A stretch of 32,733 bases of DNA from IMG/VR virus record IMGVR_UViG_2654587685_000006; one strand, 5' to 3'. Shown one piece after another: positions 783 to 29,808 of this stretch. The stretch is from a virus. Lineage: Duplodnaviria; Heunggongvirae; Uroviricota; Caudoviricetes. Made by a program: the position numbers and the translations under genes. Under the pieces are notes generated by a model. The model made no database searches, was not told where the DNA came from, and was given only the letters and a program-made list of their open reading frames with translations. Positions within the stretch are counted from its first letter, which is position 1. Each line of letters starts with the position of its first letter.

Positions 783-3700
783 TCAACGAATACTGATGCC
801 GGAAGCGGCTTTTTTGGTCACAATCACCGTACAGTCGGTGATATTACCTGCCCACTGATTGCCTTTATGGAAAACCTTAAACTCCAGAGTGACGCTTCCC
901 CTGCCACTCGGCATATCAATAACCGCACTGTAGCTACCGGGAATGGCCCCTTTAGTTTCTCTGGATGCGATTAATACACCGTTTTTGCGAACTTCAAAAC
1001 CATAACCCGTGTATCTTGTACCTCCCGGGTTATTACCACTTCCCGGATGGCTATACGCTATTCCGTTAAAGATAATGGGCGGAATAATGATTTGACGGTC
1101 AAAGTTATGATCATCGCTGATGGTGACTGTAACCGTCCCGTTTGGTGTTTCCGTGTTACCCCACGTACCAGCCTGTTTCGGAAATGATTTGGATACAGCT
1201 TTAACGAAGTCACCTCTGACCTGAGTCGCCTCCAGCATGCCCTTAATCGTACAGTTTTCATTTACCGTGACATTGTTGAGCGTCCCGGCGTTCGCATTCA
1301 CACTGCCACTGATATCCGCATTTTTAGCGGTCAGCTTTCCGTCCGGTGTCAGGGAAAATGCCGGCGGATTTCCACCGCTGGTAATGGTGGGAGCCGTCAG
1401 GCGTTTCAGGAACACGTCATTCATGAATATCTGATCACCCTGACCAACAAACATCGGTTTTGTGTTGCCATTTGCAGGATTAATCATCGCAATCCTGTCC
1501 GCCGCCAGCAGCACCTGACTCTGCATGCCGTCAGGGGTGTTCTCAATACCGGCACCGATACCCGCAATATAAAGGCGTCCGTCCTGCATCTGCTGCAGCT
1601 TCACTGCCCACATGCTGTTCAGGTTATTATTTGTATCAACCTGAACCTTCTGTATCTGCTGGATCGCTGCACTCTGGTCTTCCAGTTTCTTATTGACGGT
1701 CTGTGTTATTTCATTGCTGACATCCGTTATGGACGTCCTGATTTCAGTCAGGTCAGGCGCAAGCTGACCGTTATCAATCTGCGTCCACAGCTCCTGAGCC
1801 AGATGGGTTTTCCCTATCTCGCCTTTGAAAAAATCCAGATAGCCTGATGCATCATCACTCGGCTGACCGACAGCCTCCACGAATGCTGATTTGCCAACAG
1901 TGTTCACACTGCGAACGTAAAAATAATAATCATGGCCCGGCTTAATATTGATACTGGCAGCTATCCAGTACAGCGCCGTACCAAGATAGCGCGCTGTGGT
2001 TTCAACCTGCCTGATATCCGCAATCCGCTTTTCCGAGAACCAGAACTCAAACTGTACCGTCGGATCATAAACGGCAAGATGCGGCGTGGCGGTTATCTGA
2101 AAATAGCCCGGCGTCAGCTCAATCCGCGACGGTGCTGCCGGTGCGGCAATCCGGAACGATACCGATGCCGGATCGCCCTGCTGTCCCCACGCATTTACCG
2201 CCCGGACTGTCAGCCTGTAGTTCCCCAGCGCCAGCTGCCTGAAGCGGTATGTGGTTTCCGTCGTCCGGGCTGTGCTGACCAGCCGCTCCCTGCCATCGTC
2301 CGCTGCCACGGTCAGGCGAAGCAGGAAGCTCACGCCCTTCACCACTTTCGGCGTGTCCCATCGCGCCAGCACCTGATATTCCCCGCTGTCTGCGGTGACT
2401 TCGGCGGTCAGGTGCTGCACCGCTGGCGGCGTGACACCATTCACCGTGCCGCTCTGGTCGCCGTCAAAGTGCGCCCCGTTATCCACGATGGCCTCTTTCT
2501 CCGGCACATGCTGCACGGCGGTGATGGCATACGCGCCGTCGTCGTTCTCACGGATGCTCACGCAGCGGAACAGGCGCTGGCGCAGCGTCGGCAGCTTCAG
2601 CCCCCACACGCTGTATTCTGCAACGCCGTCAGGAACATGGCTCACTTTCACCTTCACGCCGTCGGTGACGGACTGAACCTCCACGCTGACCGGATTGCCA
2701 CTTCCGTCAACCAGGCTTATCAGCGTGGTACCGGAGGATGGCAGCATGATTTCACGGTCGAGCGTCAGCGTCCGGGTCTGGCTGTTCACCGCCAGCACGC
2801 GACCACCGGTGCTGATACCGGCATAGTCATCATCGCAGATTTCAATGACATCGCCCGGTACATGGCGAAGCCCTTCTGCGCCAACGCTGAAGTCCACGGT
2901 CTGCGTTTCCAGCAGTTCTGTTTTAATCAGCCACAGCCCGGCGCGGTGTGCCTGCCCCCGGCTGGTACAGCCAAAGGCATCCATCTTCGTGACGTTACGA
3001 CCGTAACGGGCAATGGCCTGCGTGTCCTCCACAAGCTCTGTTGCCGTCTCCCAGCCGTTGTCCGGGTCAATCCAGTTCATCTCAACGGCATTATGGCGGT
3101 CCTTCAGGGCGCTGAAGCTGTAGCGGAACGGCGCGCCATCATCCGGCATCACCACATTACTGCGGTTATAGGTCCACACCTTATCCGACGGCCGGTCCTG
3201 CACGAACGTCAGCGTCTGCCCGTTCCATACCGGCATACAGCGCATCGCCGAGCAAAAATCACTGAGAACATCCCACGCCTTACGCTGTGTGGTCAGGTAC
3301 GCATTACAGGTGATGCGCGGCTCCGTGCCGCCAAAGCCGTCCGGCACCGACTGGTCGCAGTACTGGCCGATGACATACAGCGCCCATTTATCCACATCCG
3401 CCGCACCAAGACGTTTTCCCATGCCGTAGCGCGGGTGGGTCAGCATATCCCACAGACACCAGGCCATGTTGTTGCTGTATGCCGGTTTTAACGTTCCGTC
3501 CCAGATACCACTGTATTGCCGCGTCTGCGGGTTATAGTTCGACGGCACCTGCAGAATACGCCCGCGCAGATGATAATTACGGCTCACCTGCTGGCTGCCG
3601 AACTGCTCCGAGTCCACCTGCACGCCGACCAGTGCCGTGTTCGGGTAGCACTGTTTCACATCGATGATTTCGGTGTATGACGACCAGAGCGTTTTGTTCT

Positions 3701-24109: not shown

Positions 24110-24184
<75 letters not shown>

Positions 24185-24187
24185 ATA

Positions 24188-24263
<76 letters not shown>

Positions 24264-24265
24264 AC

Positions 24266-24342
24266 TGGCCCGCCACCGAGGACTCGAACCTCGCACCATC
24301 AACTTAGAAGGTTGATGCTCTATCCGGATGAGCTAGTAGCGG
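24266..24342 (-). tRNA. tRNA-Arg (anticodon UCU)
   Basis: CCGCTACTAGCTCATCCGGATAGAGCATCAACCTTCTAAGTTGATGGTGCGAGGTTCGAGTCCTCGGTGGCGGGCCA; anticodon loop CUUCUAA; reads AGA/AGG. Confidence 0.85.
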
Positions 24343-24343
24343 C

Positions 24344-24419
24344 TGGTGGCCCTTGCTGGATTTGAACCAGCGACCTGGCGATTATGAGTCGCTCGCTCTC
24401 ACCACTGAGCTAAAGGGCC
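24344..24419 (-). tRNA. tRNA-Ile2-like (anticodon CAU, probably lysidine-modified to read AUA; Met not excluded)
   Basis: GGCCCTTTAGCTCAGTGGTGAGAGCGAGCGACTCATAATCGCCAGGTCGCTGGTTCAAATCCAGCAAGGGCCACCA; body resembles E. coli ileX/ileY-type tRNA as recalled. Confidence 0.8.
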
Positions 24420-25987: not shown

Positions 25988-26013
25988 ATAAAAAAACCCG
26001 CATAACGCGGGTT
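25988..26013 (-). terminator. Rho-independent terminator about 85 nt downstream of Q (candidate tR')
   Basis: Minus-strand ACCCGC-gttat-GCGGGT followed by TTTTTTTAT. Confidence 0.45.
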
Positions 26014-26097
26014 CTTTCAGGTGTCCATGTCTGCTATTCGCCTCGCGGTATAGCTTTGCGAAGCGTAGCTGGATTGAAACAGTTTATGCGTAAAAAA

Positions 26098-26652
26098 TCA
26101 AGACATTTTTTGAGCAAACGATTCTCGCATAGGGATGTATAGCGCATATTCAGCAACAGCCAACCAATTAGCAATTCGCTTTTCGCATGTACTAAAACAC
26201 CATTCCGGGTGCACCTCATTCAACAATTCAGCCATTTTGCGTTTACTCATCCCCCGCCCTTCGTACCTTTGCCGCAGGATATCAATCAATCCAGGATAAC
26301 GTGCAAGCGCTTTACTTATCACCCCATCAATGCGTAACGCCTCTGCATCAGAACAGTGAGACAACCAGCTCTTCTGTCTGCCAGCGATCATCTCTCGCAA
26401 GAATGCTTCCAGCTCTGGTTTATCAATCCCTGACTCCCTGATTCTACGCAGGGCTTCATTGATCGCGGTTTTTGTCAGTTTTTTGGATGTCAGCAACTGA
26501 TTGAACATATTTCCTGTTTTGCCACCACCTATATACGACCAACGCCCCCACATCCGTAATTTCCCCTGGATCCAGACGGCTTCCAGCGTTTTTAGACGTA
26601 AATGCTCGCCGCTTTTGCCTGTAATTTCCGGGTATATCATATTTACGATCAC
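26098..26652 (-). CDS. Late-gene antitermination protein Q-like
   Basis: 184-aa ORF in the Q position (after rusA, before late terminator and lysis genes); unrelated in sequence to lambda Q but resembles other lambdoid prophage antiterminators as recalled. Assignment by position plus recollection only. Confidence 0.55.
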   Translation of the reverse strand: MIVNMIYPEITGKSGEHLRLKTLEAVWIQGKLRMWGRWSYIGGGKTGNMFNQLLTSKKLTKTAINEALRRIRESGIDKPELEAFLREMIAGRQKSWLSHCSDAEALRIDGVISKALARYPGLIDILRQRYEGRGMSKRKMAELLNEVHPEWCFSTCEKRIANWLAVAEYALYIPMRESFAQKMS

Positions 26653-27017
26653 TCACTCTCAATTTTGTAAATCTTCACGCCCAGCCGCCCCCCCCCAGGA
26701 ACGCGCTGACCGCGCACAATATTGATTTCATCAAACTGCTCGTCGTCTATGAGAAGTCCGGCATGCGTCAGCGCATCCAGTGGTGCTTTCAGGATATTGT
26801 CCAGGTCACGACGACGTTTATCCGGTGGCTCTGCAATAATTTTTATTGCCAGCCTTCCGGACAGGTTTAATTTCAGTCGCTGCTGGCGAACAATGAGCGC
26901 CACATCACGGCGATAACGCTCACCGGCTTTTGATACAAAATATGTACTGCCACGACGTCGCCAGTAGGTGTTCACCGTCGGCGGGTAAGGCAAAACAAAT
27001 TCTATGCGTTCAGTCAT
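26649..27017 (-). CDS. rusA: Holliday junction resolvase RusA
   Basis: MTERIEFVLPYPPTVNTYWRRRG...DKRRRDLDNILKAPLDALTHAGLLIDDEQ...; conserved RRRDLDN and P-P-x-N-x-Y motifs of the RusA family. Confidence 0.85.
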   Translation of the reverse strand: MTERIEFVLPYPPTVNTYWRRRGSTYFVSKAGERYRRDVALIVRQQRLKLNLSGRLAIKIIAEPPDKRRRDLDNILKAPLDALTHAGLLIDDEQFDEINIVRGQRVPGGGRLGVKIYKIESE

Positions 27018-28074: not shown

Positions 28075-28347
28075 TTACCTCCAGATCCGTTGCTGGAATG
28101 TGCGGGACGGACGCGGTGGGCGTTCGGAGTAAGGGAGCCTGACGTAGATTATCCAGTGACGATAATCGAGGCTGAGGGCTTTCTTAATCTCGTATCCGCG
28201 TCTGCGGTAGTTATGAATTAGCCATTCGGCCTGTTCTTCAGTACATGGTGGGTGTTGGTACCAGTCGGTTTTAAATGCGTGTGAACGCCGCCCATGCCGG
28301 ATGGCAAGGTCGGTATCAGAATTGTGAAATTTGGTTTTGTGCGCCAT
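28075..28347 (-). CDS. Hypothetical nin-region protein
   Basis: Preferred start MAHKTKFHNSDTDLAIRHGRR...; basic protein, family not recognised; start uncertain. Confidence 0.3.
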   Translation of the reverse strand: MAHKTKFHNSDTDLAIRHGRRSHAFKTDWYQHPPCTEEQAEWLIHNYRRRGYEIKKALSLDYRHWIIYVRLPYSERPPRPSRTFQQRIWR

Positions 28348-28417
28348 CGGTTGTCTCTGCTGGCGCAGCAGGTGCCAGTTGTTCAGGCTGGCGTGCGAAT
28401 TGTAAACCAGAATGCCA

Positions 28418-28448
28418 GGAAAAAACAAAACCCGCCGAAGCGGGTTTT
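28418..28448 (-). terminator. Hairpin terminator after the Doc toxin gene
   Basis: CCCGC-UUCG-GCGGG hairpin with U-tracts on both sides; the same hairpin sequence recurs at 29271-29291. Confidence 0.45.
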
Positions 28449-28462
28449 CATTGGAAGCACCT

Positions 28463-28957
28463 TTAGTTTTGCTGTTCTATTTTAAGCTTGATAGTTTCAT
28501 ACAAAACAATAGTTGCGCCTGTTTTACATAATTCCCGGCTGTCATACGCGCGAGACCAATAACACAACCAGTTCTCGAGATCTTCTCGAGTATAGGTTTT
28601 GCAGGCCAGTCCCTCTGCCATTTCCACGATTTCATCGCCTGGTGCTGTTAACTCATAGCCATTCAACAACAAGAAGACGTAACCAGCCATCATAGCTGTT
28701 CGTTTGTTCGCATTAGCAAACGGATGATTCTGAATCAGACTTTCAATCAATACCGATGCCAGTACAAACATGTCATTAGTCTGTTCATACCATCGAACCA
28801 TGCTGGGACGGGCCTGAGAAGAACTTAAGTTATCTGGACTCAGAACACCAACGGGCTCATCTGGCGTCTGTAATTCAATTAGGGAACGATTGATTTCAAC
28901 AAGATCATCAACCGTAAGGTAATGCACTCCTTCAACAATCTCAGCCATAGAGCACAA
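28463..28957 (-). CDS. Fic/Doc-family toxin (death-on-curing-like)
   Basis: 164 aa with HPFANANKRTAMMAGYVFLLLNGYEL, i.e. the Fic/Doc core motif HxFx(D/N)(A/G)NKR; preceded by a small ORF 10 nt upstream. Confidence 0.75.
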   Translation of the reverse strand: MCSMAEIVEGVHYLTVDDLVEINRSLIELQTPDEPVGVLSPDNLSSSQARPSMVRWYEQTNDMFVLASVLIESLIQNHPFANANKRTAMMAGYVFLLLNGYELTAPGDEIVEMAEGLACKTYTREDLENWLCYWSRAYDSRELCKTGATIVLYETIKLKIEQQN

Positions 28958-28966
28958 TACCCATCA

Positions 28967-29146
28967 TTACACTTTTGAAAGTTCTTCCATGGCTTTCTCA
29001 TAACGAGAAAAACCGAAATCAAAAGCATTTTTCACTTGTTCACGATGTGCGCAGTTTTCATCAATCGCTGGGCGAGGGACTGCCACAACGCTTTTATCGC
29101 GAGGCGGAATACTCAACCGCGTGTGTTTTTTGAGTGGGCAGCTCAT
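28967..29146 (-). CDS. Putative antitoxin partner of the Doc-like toxin
   Basis: About 59 aa (MSCPLKKHTRLSIPPRDKSVVAVPRPAIDEN...); sits immediately upstream of the Doc gene in typical type II TA arrangement; fold not determinable by eye; start uncertain. Confidence 0.45.
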   Translation of the reverse strand: MSCPLKKHTRLSIPPRDKSVVAVPRPAIDENCAHREQVKNAFDFGFSRYEKAMEELSKV

Positions 29147-29270
29147 ACTAATGAGTCCTTTTGTTTTCCGATTATTGGCAAAGCCATGCACCAAATTTGA
29201 TGCAAAATAGATCTGTTTGAGATCCTTAGGATAGTCTAATGGTAGCTAAAATTACAACCTCATTATGCGA

Positions 29271-29291
29271 CGAAAAACCCGCCGAAGCGGG
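29271..29291 (-). terminator. Hairpin terminator after hok
   Basis: Minus-strand CCCGC-UUCG-GCGGG followed by TTTTTCG. Confidence 0.45.
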
Positions 29292-29361
29292 TTAAGTGCG
29301 GGTGCGTTGAGGATGCCTGACACATCAGAGGTGGTGAGGGATTTCTCCCTCGCCTGGTCTC

Positions 29362-29517
29362 TTACTCCTCAGGTTCGTAAGCTGTGAAGACAGCGACCTC
29401 CGTCTGGCCGGTTCGGATTCGTACCTCGCAGAGGTCTTTCCTCGTTACCAGTGCCGTCACTATGACGGTTAAACAGATGACGATAAGGGCGATTAACATC
29501 GCCTTTTGCTGCTTCAT
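29362..29517 (-). CDS. hok: Hok/Gef family type I toxin
   Basis: MKQQKAMLIALIVICLTVIVTALVTRKDLCEVRIRTGQTEVAVFTAYEPEE: 51 aa, single TM helix, conserved Hok C-terminal motif; an in-frame upstream extension may correspond to a mok-like leader. Confidence 0.85.
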   Translation of the reverse strand: MKQQKAMLIALIVICLTVIVTALVTRKDLCEVRIRTGQTEVAVFTAYEPEE

Positions 29518-29808
29518 AGCCTGCTTCTCCTTGCCTTTCGGCACGTAAGAGGCTAACCTACATTTGTGAGACATAGATTGAGCCTCAGATTAATGTTAAG
29601 CGTCTTGCAGGACGCGTAATGTTAACTGGGGCTTTTCTCTATCTGCCTTTTGGTGTTCATGCCTGAGGCAGATAGCCTCAAGCACCCGCAGCAATTCTAC
29701 TTAACTCCCCTTTCACTGCAAACCGTTTTTATCCCCAGCGGCAAATCGAATACACAACAAGTGCTGCCGCCATTGCAATTCCTGTCGTTGTGAATGCCTC
29801 CGGCCAGG

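What the first reader, a model, noticed from the sequence alone, without database searches (positions are those of the whole stretch)
28463..29146. Doc/Fic-family toxin with upstream small partner gene in the nin-like region
A 164-aa protein carries the Fic/Doc core motif (HPFANANKRTA), and a roughly 59-aa ORF ends 10 nt upstream in the usual antitoxin-then-toxin order, followed by a terminator. A type II toxin-antitoxin pair in a prophage accessory region could stabilise the prophage or act in abortive infection. The antitoxin does not look like a canonical Phd by eye.
Basis: partly seen in the sequence, partly recalled or inferred. Interest (0 to 1): 0.5.

Follow-up and report, generated by a model that had tools for sequence, protein, structure and literature searches.

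The report
Prophage Doc toxin with non-Phd partner
A lambdoid prophage carries an 847-bp two-gene cassette: an already-annotated Doc-family toxin, and upstream of it a conserved 59-residue protein of no described family that is most likely its antitoxin, so this is an ordinary kind of system with an uncharacterised partner.

Summary

- **Doc:** it is a secure family member. TIGR01550 gives E 1.5e-37, the Doc motif HPFANANKR is intact, and a subfamily profile hits solved Doc structures. RefSeq already annotates it as a death-on-curing toxin.
- **Partner:** it matches no Pfam, NCBIfam, PADLOC or PDB entry, only PHROG 2208 ("unknown function").
- **Linkage:** in the core family the two genes always travel together. 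80/80 loci found through Doc and 14/14 found through the partner hold the other gene on the same strand, about 10-60 nt away. These loci lie in four unrelated genomic contexts.
- **Partner properties:** the ORF is under purifying selection (pN/pS 0.24). It is predicted as an unstructured basic N-terminus plus a confident C-terminal helix, with no DNA-binding fold.

Best reading: a type II toxin-antitoxin cassette whose antitoxin is a minimal, non-Phd protein that binds Doc through its C-terminal helix. Neutralisation, toxicity and biological role are inferred, not shown. The resemblance to the Phd C-terminal helix is not statistically supported. The Doc structure model failed, and a complex could not be predicted. 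I rate it a new variant of a known kind, of modest interest.

The parts
28463..28948 (-). Doc-family (death-on-curing) toxin gene. 161 aa from ATG 28948, stop codon 28463-28465. An alternative TTG start at 28957 gives 164 aa. The catalytic motif HPFANANKR is at residues 75-83.
   Evidence: TIGR01550 E 1.5e-37 and Pfam Fic E 6.6e-12. PHROG 577 'Doc-like toxin' E 1.8e-51. A subfamily profile hits PDB 9vzc Doc at 2.6e-19 and P1 Doc 3k33 at 2.4e-7. Motif check. RefSeq annotation.
28967..29146 (-). 59-aa partner gene, the predicted antitoxin. It has a basic, proline-rich N-terminal part with a conserved RLxIPxRDK motif and a C-terminal helix (residues 34-58) that is nearly invariant in the family.
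   Evidence: No Pfam, NCBIfam, PADLOC or PDB match. PHROG 2208, unknown function, E 6.9e-41. Always directly upstream of Doc in 94 related loci. pN/pS 0.24. AlphaFold gives helix 34-58 at pLDDT about 95.
28427..28448 (-). Intrinsic terminator hairpin behind Doc. It contains the left copy (28427-28446) of the 20-nt direct repeat AAAACCCGCCGAAGCGGGTT.
   Evidence: Terminator scan. Repeat finder, two exact copies 847 nt apart.
29274..29293 (-). Right copy of the same 20-nt hairpin. It is the terminator of the upstream hok gene and forms the upstream border of the cassette.
   Evidence: In phage Evi the two flanks abut on a single copy of this hairpin and the cassette is absent.
29147..29273 (-). 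127-nt leader and promoter region of the cassette. It holds a weak promoter candidate, TTGTAA (29257-29252), 18 nt, TATCCT (29233-29228). It also holds an 18-nt near-perfect palindrome, TGCATCAAATTTGGTGCA (29204-29187).
   Evidence: My own relaxed scan gave 8 of 12 matches. The standard scan found no promoter. The function of both elements is not shown.

Best explanation
This is a self-contained type II toxin-antitoxin-like cassette carried as accessory cargo by a lambdoid prophage. Its extent is 847 bp counted between the two copies of the border repeat, so it holds one hairpin copy, its own leader, two genes and a terminator.

The second gene encodes a Doc-type Fic-fold kinase. By homology with P1, Salmonella and Enterococcus Doc, it would phosphorylate elongation factor Tu and stop translation. 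The first gene encodes a 59-residue protein made from the same transcript. I propose that it binds and neutralises Doc, mainly through its conserved C-terminal amphipathic helix. That is how the C-terminal helix of Phd neutralises Doc, but here the Phd/YefM DNA-binding domain is absent.

Shown here: family membership of the toxin, an intact catalytic motif, operon layout, strict co-occurrence, coding selection on the small ORF, and a predicted C-terminal helix. Inferred: toxicity, EF-Tu as the target, direct binding, which part of the partner binds, antitoxin lability, and the benefit to the prophage (retention of the element or exclusion of other phages).
For: - **Toxin identity:** TIGR01550 128.5 bits (cut-off 38.65) over 121 of 122 profile positions, plus Pfam Fic. 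HPFANANKR fits the Doc motif HxFx(D/N)(A/G)NKR quoted in PMC13034048 and is kept in 30/30 subfamily members. A subfamily profile matches solved Doc chains.
- **Operon:** same strand, 18-nt gap, no terminator between the genes and a terminator after them.
- **Linkage:** 14/14 genome loci found through the partner have Doc 10-62 nt downstream. 80/80 viral loci found through Doc have the partner directly upstream. Three of the more distant partner homologues also sit in front of a Fic/Doc gene.
- **Mobility as a unit:** the pair occurs in the lambdoid nin region, beside the integrase of Pseudomonas phages, inside a tail gene cluster, and next to fliF in Yersinia pestis. An empty site exists in phage Evi.
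- **The partner is a real protein:** pN/pS is 0.24 overall and 0.12 in the C-terminal helix. The helix 34-58 is predicted at pLDDT about 95.
- **Precedent:** a C-terminal Phd peptide alone neutralises Doc (PMC9207808). The 'Phd-C' element is portable between antitoxin scaffolds, and antitoxins consisting of a neutralisation domain alone exist (PMC10440598).
Against: - No experiment or complex model supports binding.
- Similarity of the partner helix to Phd-C is not significant. hhalign gives probability 1.2%. The C-terminus-anchored register ranks only 44th of 2255 ungapped registers against P1 Phd, and other registers score higher.
- The Doc structure model failed at pLDDT 49.
- The partner has no recognisable DNA-binding fold, so the usual autoregulation of type II systems is unexplained.
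- No consensus promoter was found in the window.
- Four marginal family members (E 5.7e-5 to 7.8e-4) have no Doc next to them, so the small-protein family may not be exclusively a Doc partner.
Confidence: 0.72

Rival explanations
1. The pair is primarily an anti-phage or superinfection-exclusion module. Doc is held inactive by the partner and released when another phage infects, shutting down translation (abortive infection). On this view it is not mainly a prophage-retention ('addiction') device. The molecular mechanism is the same as in the best explanation; only the selected role differs.
For: The cassette sits in accessory-gene slots of several unrelated phages, and its lambdoid slot holds other cargo in other phages. 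It lies next to another toxin system, hok/sok. The literature reports toxin-antitoxin systems in phage defence (PMC10440598).
Against: There is no membership in any PADLOC defence model. Only weak Fic-domain hits were found, at E 0.002-0.02. No phage-challenge data exist. A copy in the Yersinia pestis chromosome lies outside any evident prophage.
Confidence: 0.3
2. The small protein is not an antitoxin. It is an accessory factor of Doc, such as a transcriptional or translational regulator, a chaperone or activator, or a specificity subunit. Doc activity would then be controlled in some other way.
For: The partner has no similarity to any known antitoxin family. Its N-terminal half is basic (net charge +3) and carries a conserved motif of unknown role. 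Palindromes occur in the leaders of many loci. Some distant homologues occur without Doc.
Against: Gene order, size, tight spacing and obligatory linkage are those of antitoxin-toxin pairs. An unguarded Doc kinase would be expected to be lethal (established knowledge of Doc). The most conserved part of the partner is a long amphipathic helix, not a DNA-binding fold.
Confidence: 0.12
3. The Doc homologue has a different activity or target from P1 Doc, for example a different protein substrate or a nucleotidyl transfer. The cassette would then modify a host or phage factor rather than arrest translation through EF-Tu.
For: Fic/Doc proteins are known to carry out different chemistries (PMC10440598). 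This subfamily is only distantly related to P1 Doc (E 5.6e-5 for the single sequence). It also has a conserved C-terminal extension, WLCxWSRxYDSRxLC and beyond, that lies outside the TIGR01550 model.
Against: The motif is the Doc (kinase) variant with Lys, HxFx(D/N)(A/G)NKR, not the adenylylating HxFx(D/E)GNGRxxR. The closest solved relative, E. faecalis Doc (9vzc), is reported to phosphorylate EF-Tu (PMC13034048).
Confidence: 0.1
4. The cassette is a decaying, non-functional remnant.
For: One related phage record, Salmonella phage SW-37, shows frameshifted copies of both genes. One metagenomic locus, L103, has a truncated Doc.
Against: Both genes in the window are full length and 99-100% identical to a protein cluster with 354 member sequences. 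The module is intact in 95 complete E. coli genomes. Both genes are conserved across genera, and the partner ORF is under purifying selection.
Confidence: 0.03

Closest known systems
Phd-Doc of bacteriophage P1, and the chromosomal Phd-Doc of Salmonella Typhimurium
   Same: The toxin belongs to the same TIGR01550 Doc subfamily of Fic proteins and has the same kinase-type motif. The layout is antitoxin first and toxin second. The element is phage-borne. The partner ends in an amphipathic helix, as Phd does. In one possible register its F42, F46, Y49, M53 and L56 fall on the Salmonella Phd hot spots F56, M60, H63, L67 and L70, at the same distance from the C-terminus (sequence compared with PMC9207808).
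   Different: The partner has no Phd/YefM domain. It is 59 aa rather than 73 aa, and its N-terminus is an unstructured basic arm. The helix resemblance is not statistically supported. This Doc is about 35 residues longer than P1 Doc, with a conserved C-terminal extension.
Doc:PanA_Phd-C of Corynebacterium doosanense, and the 'Phd-C' modular neutralisation element (NetFlax study, PMC10440598)
   Same: It shows that a short helical Doc-neutralising element works on different scaffolds, and even fused to SUMO. The partner here could be that principle reduced to a near-minimal protein.
   Different: Here there is no Panacea domain or any other globular domain. Homology of the helix to Phd-C is not demonstrated. 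The accession numbers of this pair are not in the supplementary text held for that paper.
PaaA2-ParE2 (paaR2-paaA2-parE2) of E. coli O157:H7 cryptic prophage CP-933P
   Same: It is a prophage-borne type II system whose small antitoxin lacks a DNA-binding domain (PMC8630535 abstract; my own knowledge for the PaaA2 details).
   Different: The toxin family is different (ParE). That system has a separate regulator gene. No third gene is conserved next to the present pair.
Class I Fic toxin-antitoxin pairs (VbhT-VbhA, FicT-FicA)
   Same: A Fic-fold enzyme is controlled by a small helical partner encoded upstream.
   Different: The inhibitory motif [ST]xxxE[GN] is absent from the partner, and only 2 of 37 family members carry it. 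The toxin has the Doc kinase motif, not the adenylylation motif.

Membership tests
Fic/Doc superfamily (Pfam PF02661) | Significant match to the Fic domain model above the gathering score | tested here: met
   46.6 bits against a cut-off of 24, E 6.6e-12, covering all 93 profile positions.
Doc (death-on-curing) subfamily, TIGR01550 | Match above the curated cut-off over the full model | tested here: met
   128.5 bits against 38.65, E 1.5e-37, profile positions 2-122 of 122. PHROG 577 'Doc-like toxin' at 1.8e-51.
Doc (death-on-curing) subfamily, TIGR01550 | Kinase-type active-site motif HxFx(D/N)(A/G)NKR instead of HxFx(D/E)GNGRxxR | tested here: met
   HPFANANKR is at residues 75-83 and the canonical Fic motif is absent. 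30/30 subfamily members keep the Doc motif. The motif is as quoted in PMC13034048.
Doc (death-on-curing) subfamily, TIGR01550 | Doc/Fic three-dimensional fold | tested here: inconclusive
   The AlphaFold model had mean pLDDT 49, so the Foldseek hits are meaningless. Indirect support comes from profile matches to solved Doc chains: 9vzc at 2.6e-19 and 3k33 at 2.4e-7.
Doc (death-on-curing) subfamily, TIGR01550 | Phosphorylates EF-Tu and arrests growth | not testable with these tools
   Needs expression and kinase assays.
Phd/YefM antitoxins (Pfam PF02604), tested for the partner | Phd/YefM N-terminal DNA-binding domain | tested here: not met
   No Pfam or NCBIfam hit at E<=1. hhalign of the family alignment against P1 Phd gives probability 1.2%. 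The model shows no globular N-terminal domain.
Phd-C type neutralisation helix, tested for the partner | C-terminal helix with the hydrophobic hot-spot pattern that docks on Doc | tested here: inconclusive
   A helix at 34-58 is confidently predicted and is the most constrained part of the protein. The register against Phd is ambiguous and not significant. Docking could not be modelled.
Class I Fic antitoxins (VbhA/FicA type), tested for the partner | Inhibitory helix motif [ST]xxxE[GN] | tested here: not met
   The motif is absent from the partner and from 35 of 37 family members.
Type II toxin-antitoxin system (generic) | Two small adjacent co-oriented genes that are inherited together | tested here: met
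   The gap is 18 nt and a single terminator follows the pair. 94/94 core-family loci keep the pair. The pair is found in four unrelated contexts.
Type II toxin-antitoxin system (generic) | The antitoxin protein binds and neutralises the toxin, and the antitoxin is the less stable partner | not testable with these tools
Type II toxin-antitoxin system (generic) | Transcriptional autoregulation through an antitoxin DNA-binding domain | tested here: inconclusive
   No DNA-binding fold was found. Palindromes are present in the leaders but are not conserved between loci.
Known anti-phage defence systems (PADLOC-DB 2.0) | Significant match to a defence-system protein model | tested here: not met
   There are only weak Fic-region hits to the candidate families PDC-S23 and PDC-S05 (E 0.002-0.02), and nothing for the partner.

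The most novel reading that the evidence does not exclude
The 59-residue protein founds an undescribed class of Doc antitoxin that has no DNA-binding domain and is not derived from Phd. Its conserved basic N-terminal arm (RLxIPxRDK) would have a function of its own, such as blocking the substrate cleft of Doc, binding nucleic acid, or sensing an infecting phage. The cassette would then be a portable phage-exclusion module that prophages exchange through a shared terminator hairpin.
Probability: 0.2. Interest if true: 0.5.

Novelty: new variant of a known kind. Interest (0 to 1): 0.3.

Why it matters
Doc toxins are studied as models of translation arrest and persistence, and their control by Phd is the textbook case. 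A widespread Doc subfamily occurs in Enterobacterales and in Pseudomonas phages, and in 95 of 5426 complete E. coli genomes, including strains named as enterotoxigenic among the best matches. If it is guarded by a 59-residue protein with no Phd domain and no DNA-binding fold, that would give three things:

- a naturally minimal neutraliser, useful for peptide-inhibitor design;
- a case for asking how such a system is regulated without an antitoxin repressor domain;
- a name for a PHROG family and a RefSeq 'hypothetical protein' that are at present unannotated.

It does not change any concept. Partner swapping and domain-less antitoxins are already documented.

Tried and rejected
1. **Complex prediction.** There is therefore no model of the interface.
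2. **Doc structure.** The prediction from a 30-sequence alignment of 63-90% identity gave pLDDT 49, and the Foldseek search on it returned only noise. This is a failed test, not evidence against the fold.
3. **Homology of the partner to Phd.** hhalign found nothing. My ungapped scoring showed that the attractive C-terminus-anchored register is not the best one, and that a shift of one helical turn or a match to Phd residues 43-51 scores higher. I therefore dropped the claim that the helix is a Phd-C homologue and keep it only as an analogy.
4. **Partner against PDB, Pfam, NCBIfam and PADLOC.** No hits were found.
5. **Literature.** The RefSeq accessions of both proteins are in no paper of the library and not in the NetFlax supplements held. 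Keyword searches found no description of this pair. The library is incomplete, so this is not proof that the pair is undescribed.
6. **A common operator upstream of the partner.** Leaders differ between loci. The recurring AATGGTATTAAAT element in Salmonella/Citrobacter/Kluyvera-type loci looks like a promoter -10 region rather than an operator, and it is absent from the window.
7. **Rejected: the small ORF is a non-coding leader.** Protein-level conservation and pN/pS of 0.24 argue against it.
8. **Rejected: the + strand ORF 28294..28485 is part of the system.** Some records annotate it as hypothetical or 'mobile element protein'. It merely overlaps the terminator and the 3' end of Doc.

Full report
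**What is in the sequence**

All genes of this part of the window run on the minus strand. Reading that strand, the order is as follows.

1. The hok gene (29517..29362), with a sok/hok RNA match at 29687..29512 (Rfam RF01794, 121.6 bits).
2. A hairpin, AACCCGCTTCGGCGGGTT, followed by a T-run (29293..29274).
3. A 127-nt leader.
4. A 59-codon ORF (29146..28967) that ends in TAA TGA.
5. After 18 nt, in the same frame, a 161-codon ORF (28948..28463).
6. After 14 nt, the same hairpin again (28448..28427), this time scored as an intrinsic terminator.

The ATG at 28948 is the RefSeq start, and homologues begin MAExVEGV. Downstream lie a small hypothetical gene, then DUF968, RusA and, in the annotated reference strain, Q. 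Upstream lie replication genes. So 'nin-like region of a lambdoid prophage' is correct.

**The toxin**

- The 161-aa protein matches Pfam Fic (E 6.6e-12) and, far above the curated cut-off, NCBIfam TIGR01550 'death-on-curing family toxin' (128.5 bits against 38.65, E 1.5e-37, full model length). It also matches PHROG 577 'Doc-like toxin'.
- Its active-site stretch, HPFANANKR (residues 75-83), fits the Doc kinase motif HxFx(D/N)(A/G)NKR quoted in PMC13034048. It does not fit the adenylylating Fic motif, and all 30 aligned subfamily members keep the Doc motif.
- A profile of the subfamily finds the solved Doc chains 9vzc (E. faecalis, 2.6e-19) and 3k33/3dd7/3kh2 (P1, 2.4e-7 and weaker), with the motif aligned.
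- RefSeq already names the protein a death-on-curing toxin. The cluster has 354 member sequences, and related clusters occur across Enterobacterales.
- The structure prediction I ran failed (mean pLDDT 49) and the fold search on it is uninformative. The fold is therefore supported only through sequence-profile matches.
- Compared with P1 Doc, the subfamily has a conserved C-terminal extension.

**The partner**

- The 59-aa protein has no match in Pfam, NCBIfam, PADLOC or PDB sequences.
- It matches PHROG 2208, a phage protein family of unknown function (E 6.9e-41). Public records call it hypothetical.
- A full HMMER scan of 1.84 billion representative proteins with a family profile found only 38 clusters. 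Nearly all are proteins of 38-95 residues, none with a recognisable fused domain. The exceptions are one 121-aa protein and one repetitive 2917-aa protein that I left out as a probable chance match.
- The family consensus is MxxAxxKxxxLxIPxRDKxxVAxPxP...HxxQVxNAFxxxFxRYxKAxxxLSKV. The last 24 residues are almost invariant among close relatives.
- Over 43 distinct coding sequences, pN/pS is 0.24 overall, 0.12 in residues 34-59 and 0.35 in residues 1-33. This is a translated gene whose C-terminal part is the most constrained.
- AlphaFold on the family alignment gives one long helix, 34-58, at pLDDT about 95, and no regular structure for residues 1-33. The N-terminal half is basic, with net charge +3.

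**Do the two genes belong together?**

Yes, in the core family.

- Searching one genome per species with the partner gave 14 loci: Kluyvera, Serratia, Citrobacter, Hafnia, Rosenbergiella, Morganella, Yersinia pestis, Providencia, Xenorhabdus and Orbaceae. All 14 have a Doc homologue (58-74% identical) 10-62 nt downstream on the same strand.
- Searching viral contigs with Doc gave 80 loci, all with the partner directly upstream.
- Two Pseudomonas phages also carry the pair, with Doc about 60% identical.
- Of seven more distant partner representatives that I looked up, three sit in front of a Fic/Doc gene (P0029, P0033, P0037). Four, all marginal hits (E 5.7e-5 to 7.8e-4), do not. One of these stands alone after an asparagine synthase gene, and one precedes a YspA-type SLOG gene.
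- The strict pairing therefore holds for the core family. At its edge the small protein may be an orphan or may have other partners.

**The pair as a mobile cassette**

- In the window, the 847 bp between the two copies of the 20-nt hairpin sequence hold exactly the leader, the two genes and one hairpin.
- Phage Evi has the same flanks abutting on a single hairpin copy, which is an empty site.
- Phage vB_EcoM-606R7 has a different gene in the same slot. It encodes a 130-aa protein with a lipoprotein-like signal sequence.
- Elsewhere the pair lies next to the integrase at the end of Pseudomonas phages, one of them classified in Peduoviridae. It also lies between tape-measure and tail-L genes of another prophage group, and next to fliF in the Y. 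pestis chromosome.
- Among 5426 complete E. coli genomes, 95 hold the full module, while 4630 match at least part of the query, mainly its flanks.

**How it most likely works**

By homology, the 161-aa protein is a Doc kinase that phosphorylates EF-Tu and stops translation. This is established for P1, Salmonella and E. faecalis Doc. The upstream protein is made from the same transcript and is the obvious candidate to hold Doc inactive.

The best-supported way for it to do so is through its C-terminal helix. A 22-residue C-terminal Phd peptide alone binds Salmonella Doc with picomolar affinity and inhibits it (PMC9207808). The corresponding 'Phd-C' element works when moved onto other scaffolds, and antitoxins that consist of a neutralisation element only are known (PMC10440598).

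In one register, the partner's F42, F46, Y49, M53 and L56 coincide with the Phd hot spots F56, M60, H63, L67 and L70, including both 'gatekeeper' residues and the same distance to the C-terminus. I tested this and it is not statistically secure. hhalign gives 1.2% probability, and other registers score higher. An i, i+4, i+7 pattern is in any case what any amphipathic helix shows. I therefore treat it as an analogy, not as homology.

The role of the conserved N-terminal arm is unknown. How the operon is regulated without a DNA-binding antitoxin is also unknown. The window has only a weak promoter candidate and an 18-nt palindrome in the leader. Leaders of other loci differ.

**Comparison and verdict**

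- The toxin is a member of the Doc subfamily. Sequence criteria and the motif are met, the fold test failed technically, and activity cannot be tested here.
- The partner is not a Phd/YefM protein, not a class I Fic antitoxin (no [ST]xxxE[GN] motif), and not any other catalogued antitoxin.
- The pair is not a catalogued defence system.
- The system works like Phd-Doc but differs in the antitoxin. This makes it a new variant of a well-known kind.
- The toxin half is already annotated. The antitoxin assignment is new as far as the searched libraries show, but it is unproven.
- Interest is modest, about 0.3.

Noticed in passing
window 29362-29687 (-): A hok/sok type I toxin-antitoxin locus lies immediately upstream of the Doc cassette. 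The Hok-family ORF is MKQQKAMLIALIVICLTVIVTALVTRKDLCEVRIRTGQTEVAVFTAYEPEE, and Rfam sok RF01794 matches at 121.6 bits. Two unrelated toxin systems therefore sit in tandem in the same early-operon slot.
   Followed up: partly
window 28427-28446 and 29274-29293: The Doc cassette is bounded by two exact 20-nt copies of a terminator hairpin sequence, AAAACCCGCCGAAGCGGGTT, 847 nt apart. Phage Evi (L002 3113-3132) has one copy and no cassette. The hairpin also follows Doc in phages where the pair sits elsewhere. This suggests that cargo is exchanged by recombination at a shared terminator.
   Followed up: partly
L101 1774-2166 (Escherichia phage vB_EcoM-606R7): The same slot between hok and DUF968/YdfU holds a different gene. 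It encodes a 130-aa protein with a lipoprotein-type signal sequence (MKKLVLVAGVMIATVMLGGCAAK...), annotated as hypothetical. The slot is therefore a variable cargo site.
   Followed up: no
L020 versus window 29147-29146 region (partner 5' end and leader): Some E. coli prophages have a Doc protein 100% identical to the window's but a completely different leader. Their partner N-terminus also differs (MSYALKKHPRLT... against MSCPLKKHTRLS...). This implies a recombination breakpoint inside the partner gene. The C-terminal helix stays with Doc while the promoter and N-terminus are swapped.
   Followed up: partly
window 29187-29204: An 18-nt near-perfect palindrome, TGCATCAAATTTGGTGCA, lies about 40 nt upstream of the partner start codon. 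It could be an operator or an RNA hairpin in the leader. Nothing identifies what binds it.
   Followed up: partly
L107 1501-1689; L109 1501-1650; L106 1036-1194; L102 277-642: Marginal members of the partner family keep the IPxRDx and AFxxxFxRYxxAxxxLAK motifs but have no Doc gene next to them. One is solitary after an asparagine synthase gene. One is followed by a YspA/SLOG-family gene in a run of small phage genes. They may be orphan antitoxins or partners of other proteins.
   Followed up: partly
L075 (IMG/VR contig) 2194-2989; L012 (Yersinia pestis) 3001-3667: The same two-gene module is inserted inside a tail gene cluster, between the tape-measure/FtsK-gamma genes and minor tail protein L. 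In Y. pestis it lies in the chromosome next to the flagellar fliF gene, outside any evident prophage.
   Followed up: partly
window 24113-24419 (-): Four tRNA genes lie in a row downstream of the Q region. The closest annotated E. coli prophage (L100) has three at the corresponding place.
   Followed up: no
window 28294-28485 (+): A 63-aa ORF on the opposite strand overlaps the terminator and the 3' end of Doc. Public records annotate it as 'hypothetical protein' or 'mobile element protein'. It looks like an annotation artefact.
   Followed up: no
L100 24764-26268 (E. coli O6:H16 prophage), against window about 25998-26688: The reference prophage with the identical Doc cassette carries a Ser/Thr kinase and PP2C phosphatase pair downstream of Q. 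The window does not align with the reference over this stretch, so the prophages are mosaic around the cassette.
   Followed up: no
L005 2193-2991 (Salmonella phage SW-37): Both the partner and Doc appear frameshifted in this phage record. The cause is either sequencing errors or a decaying copy.
   Followed up: no
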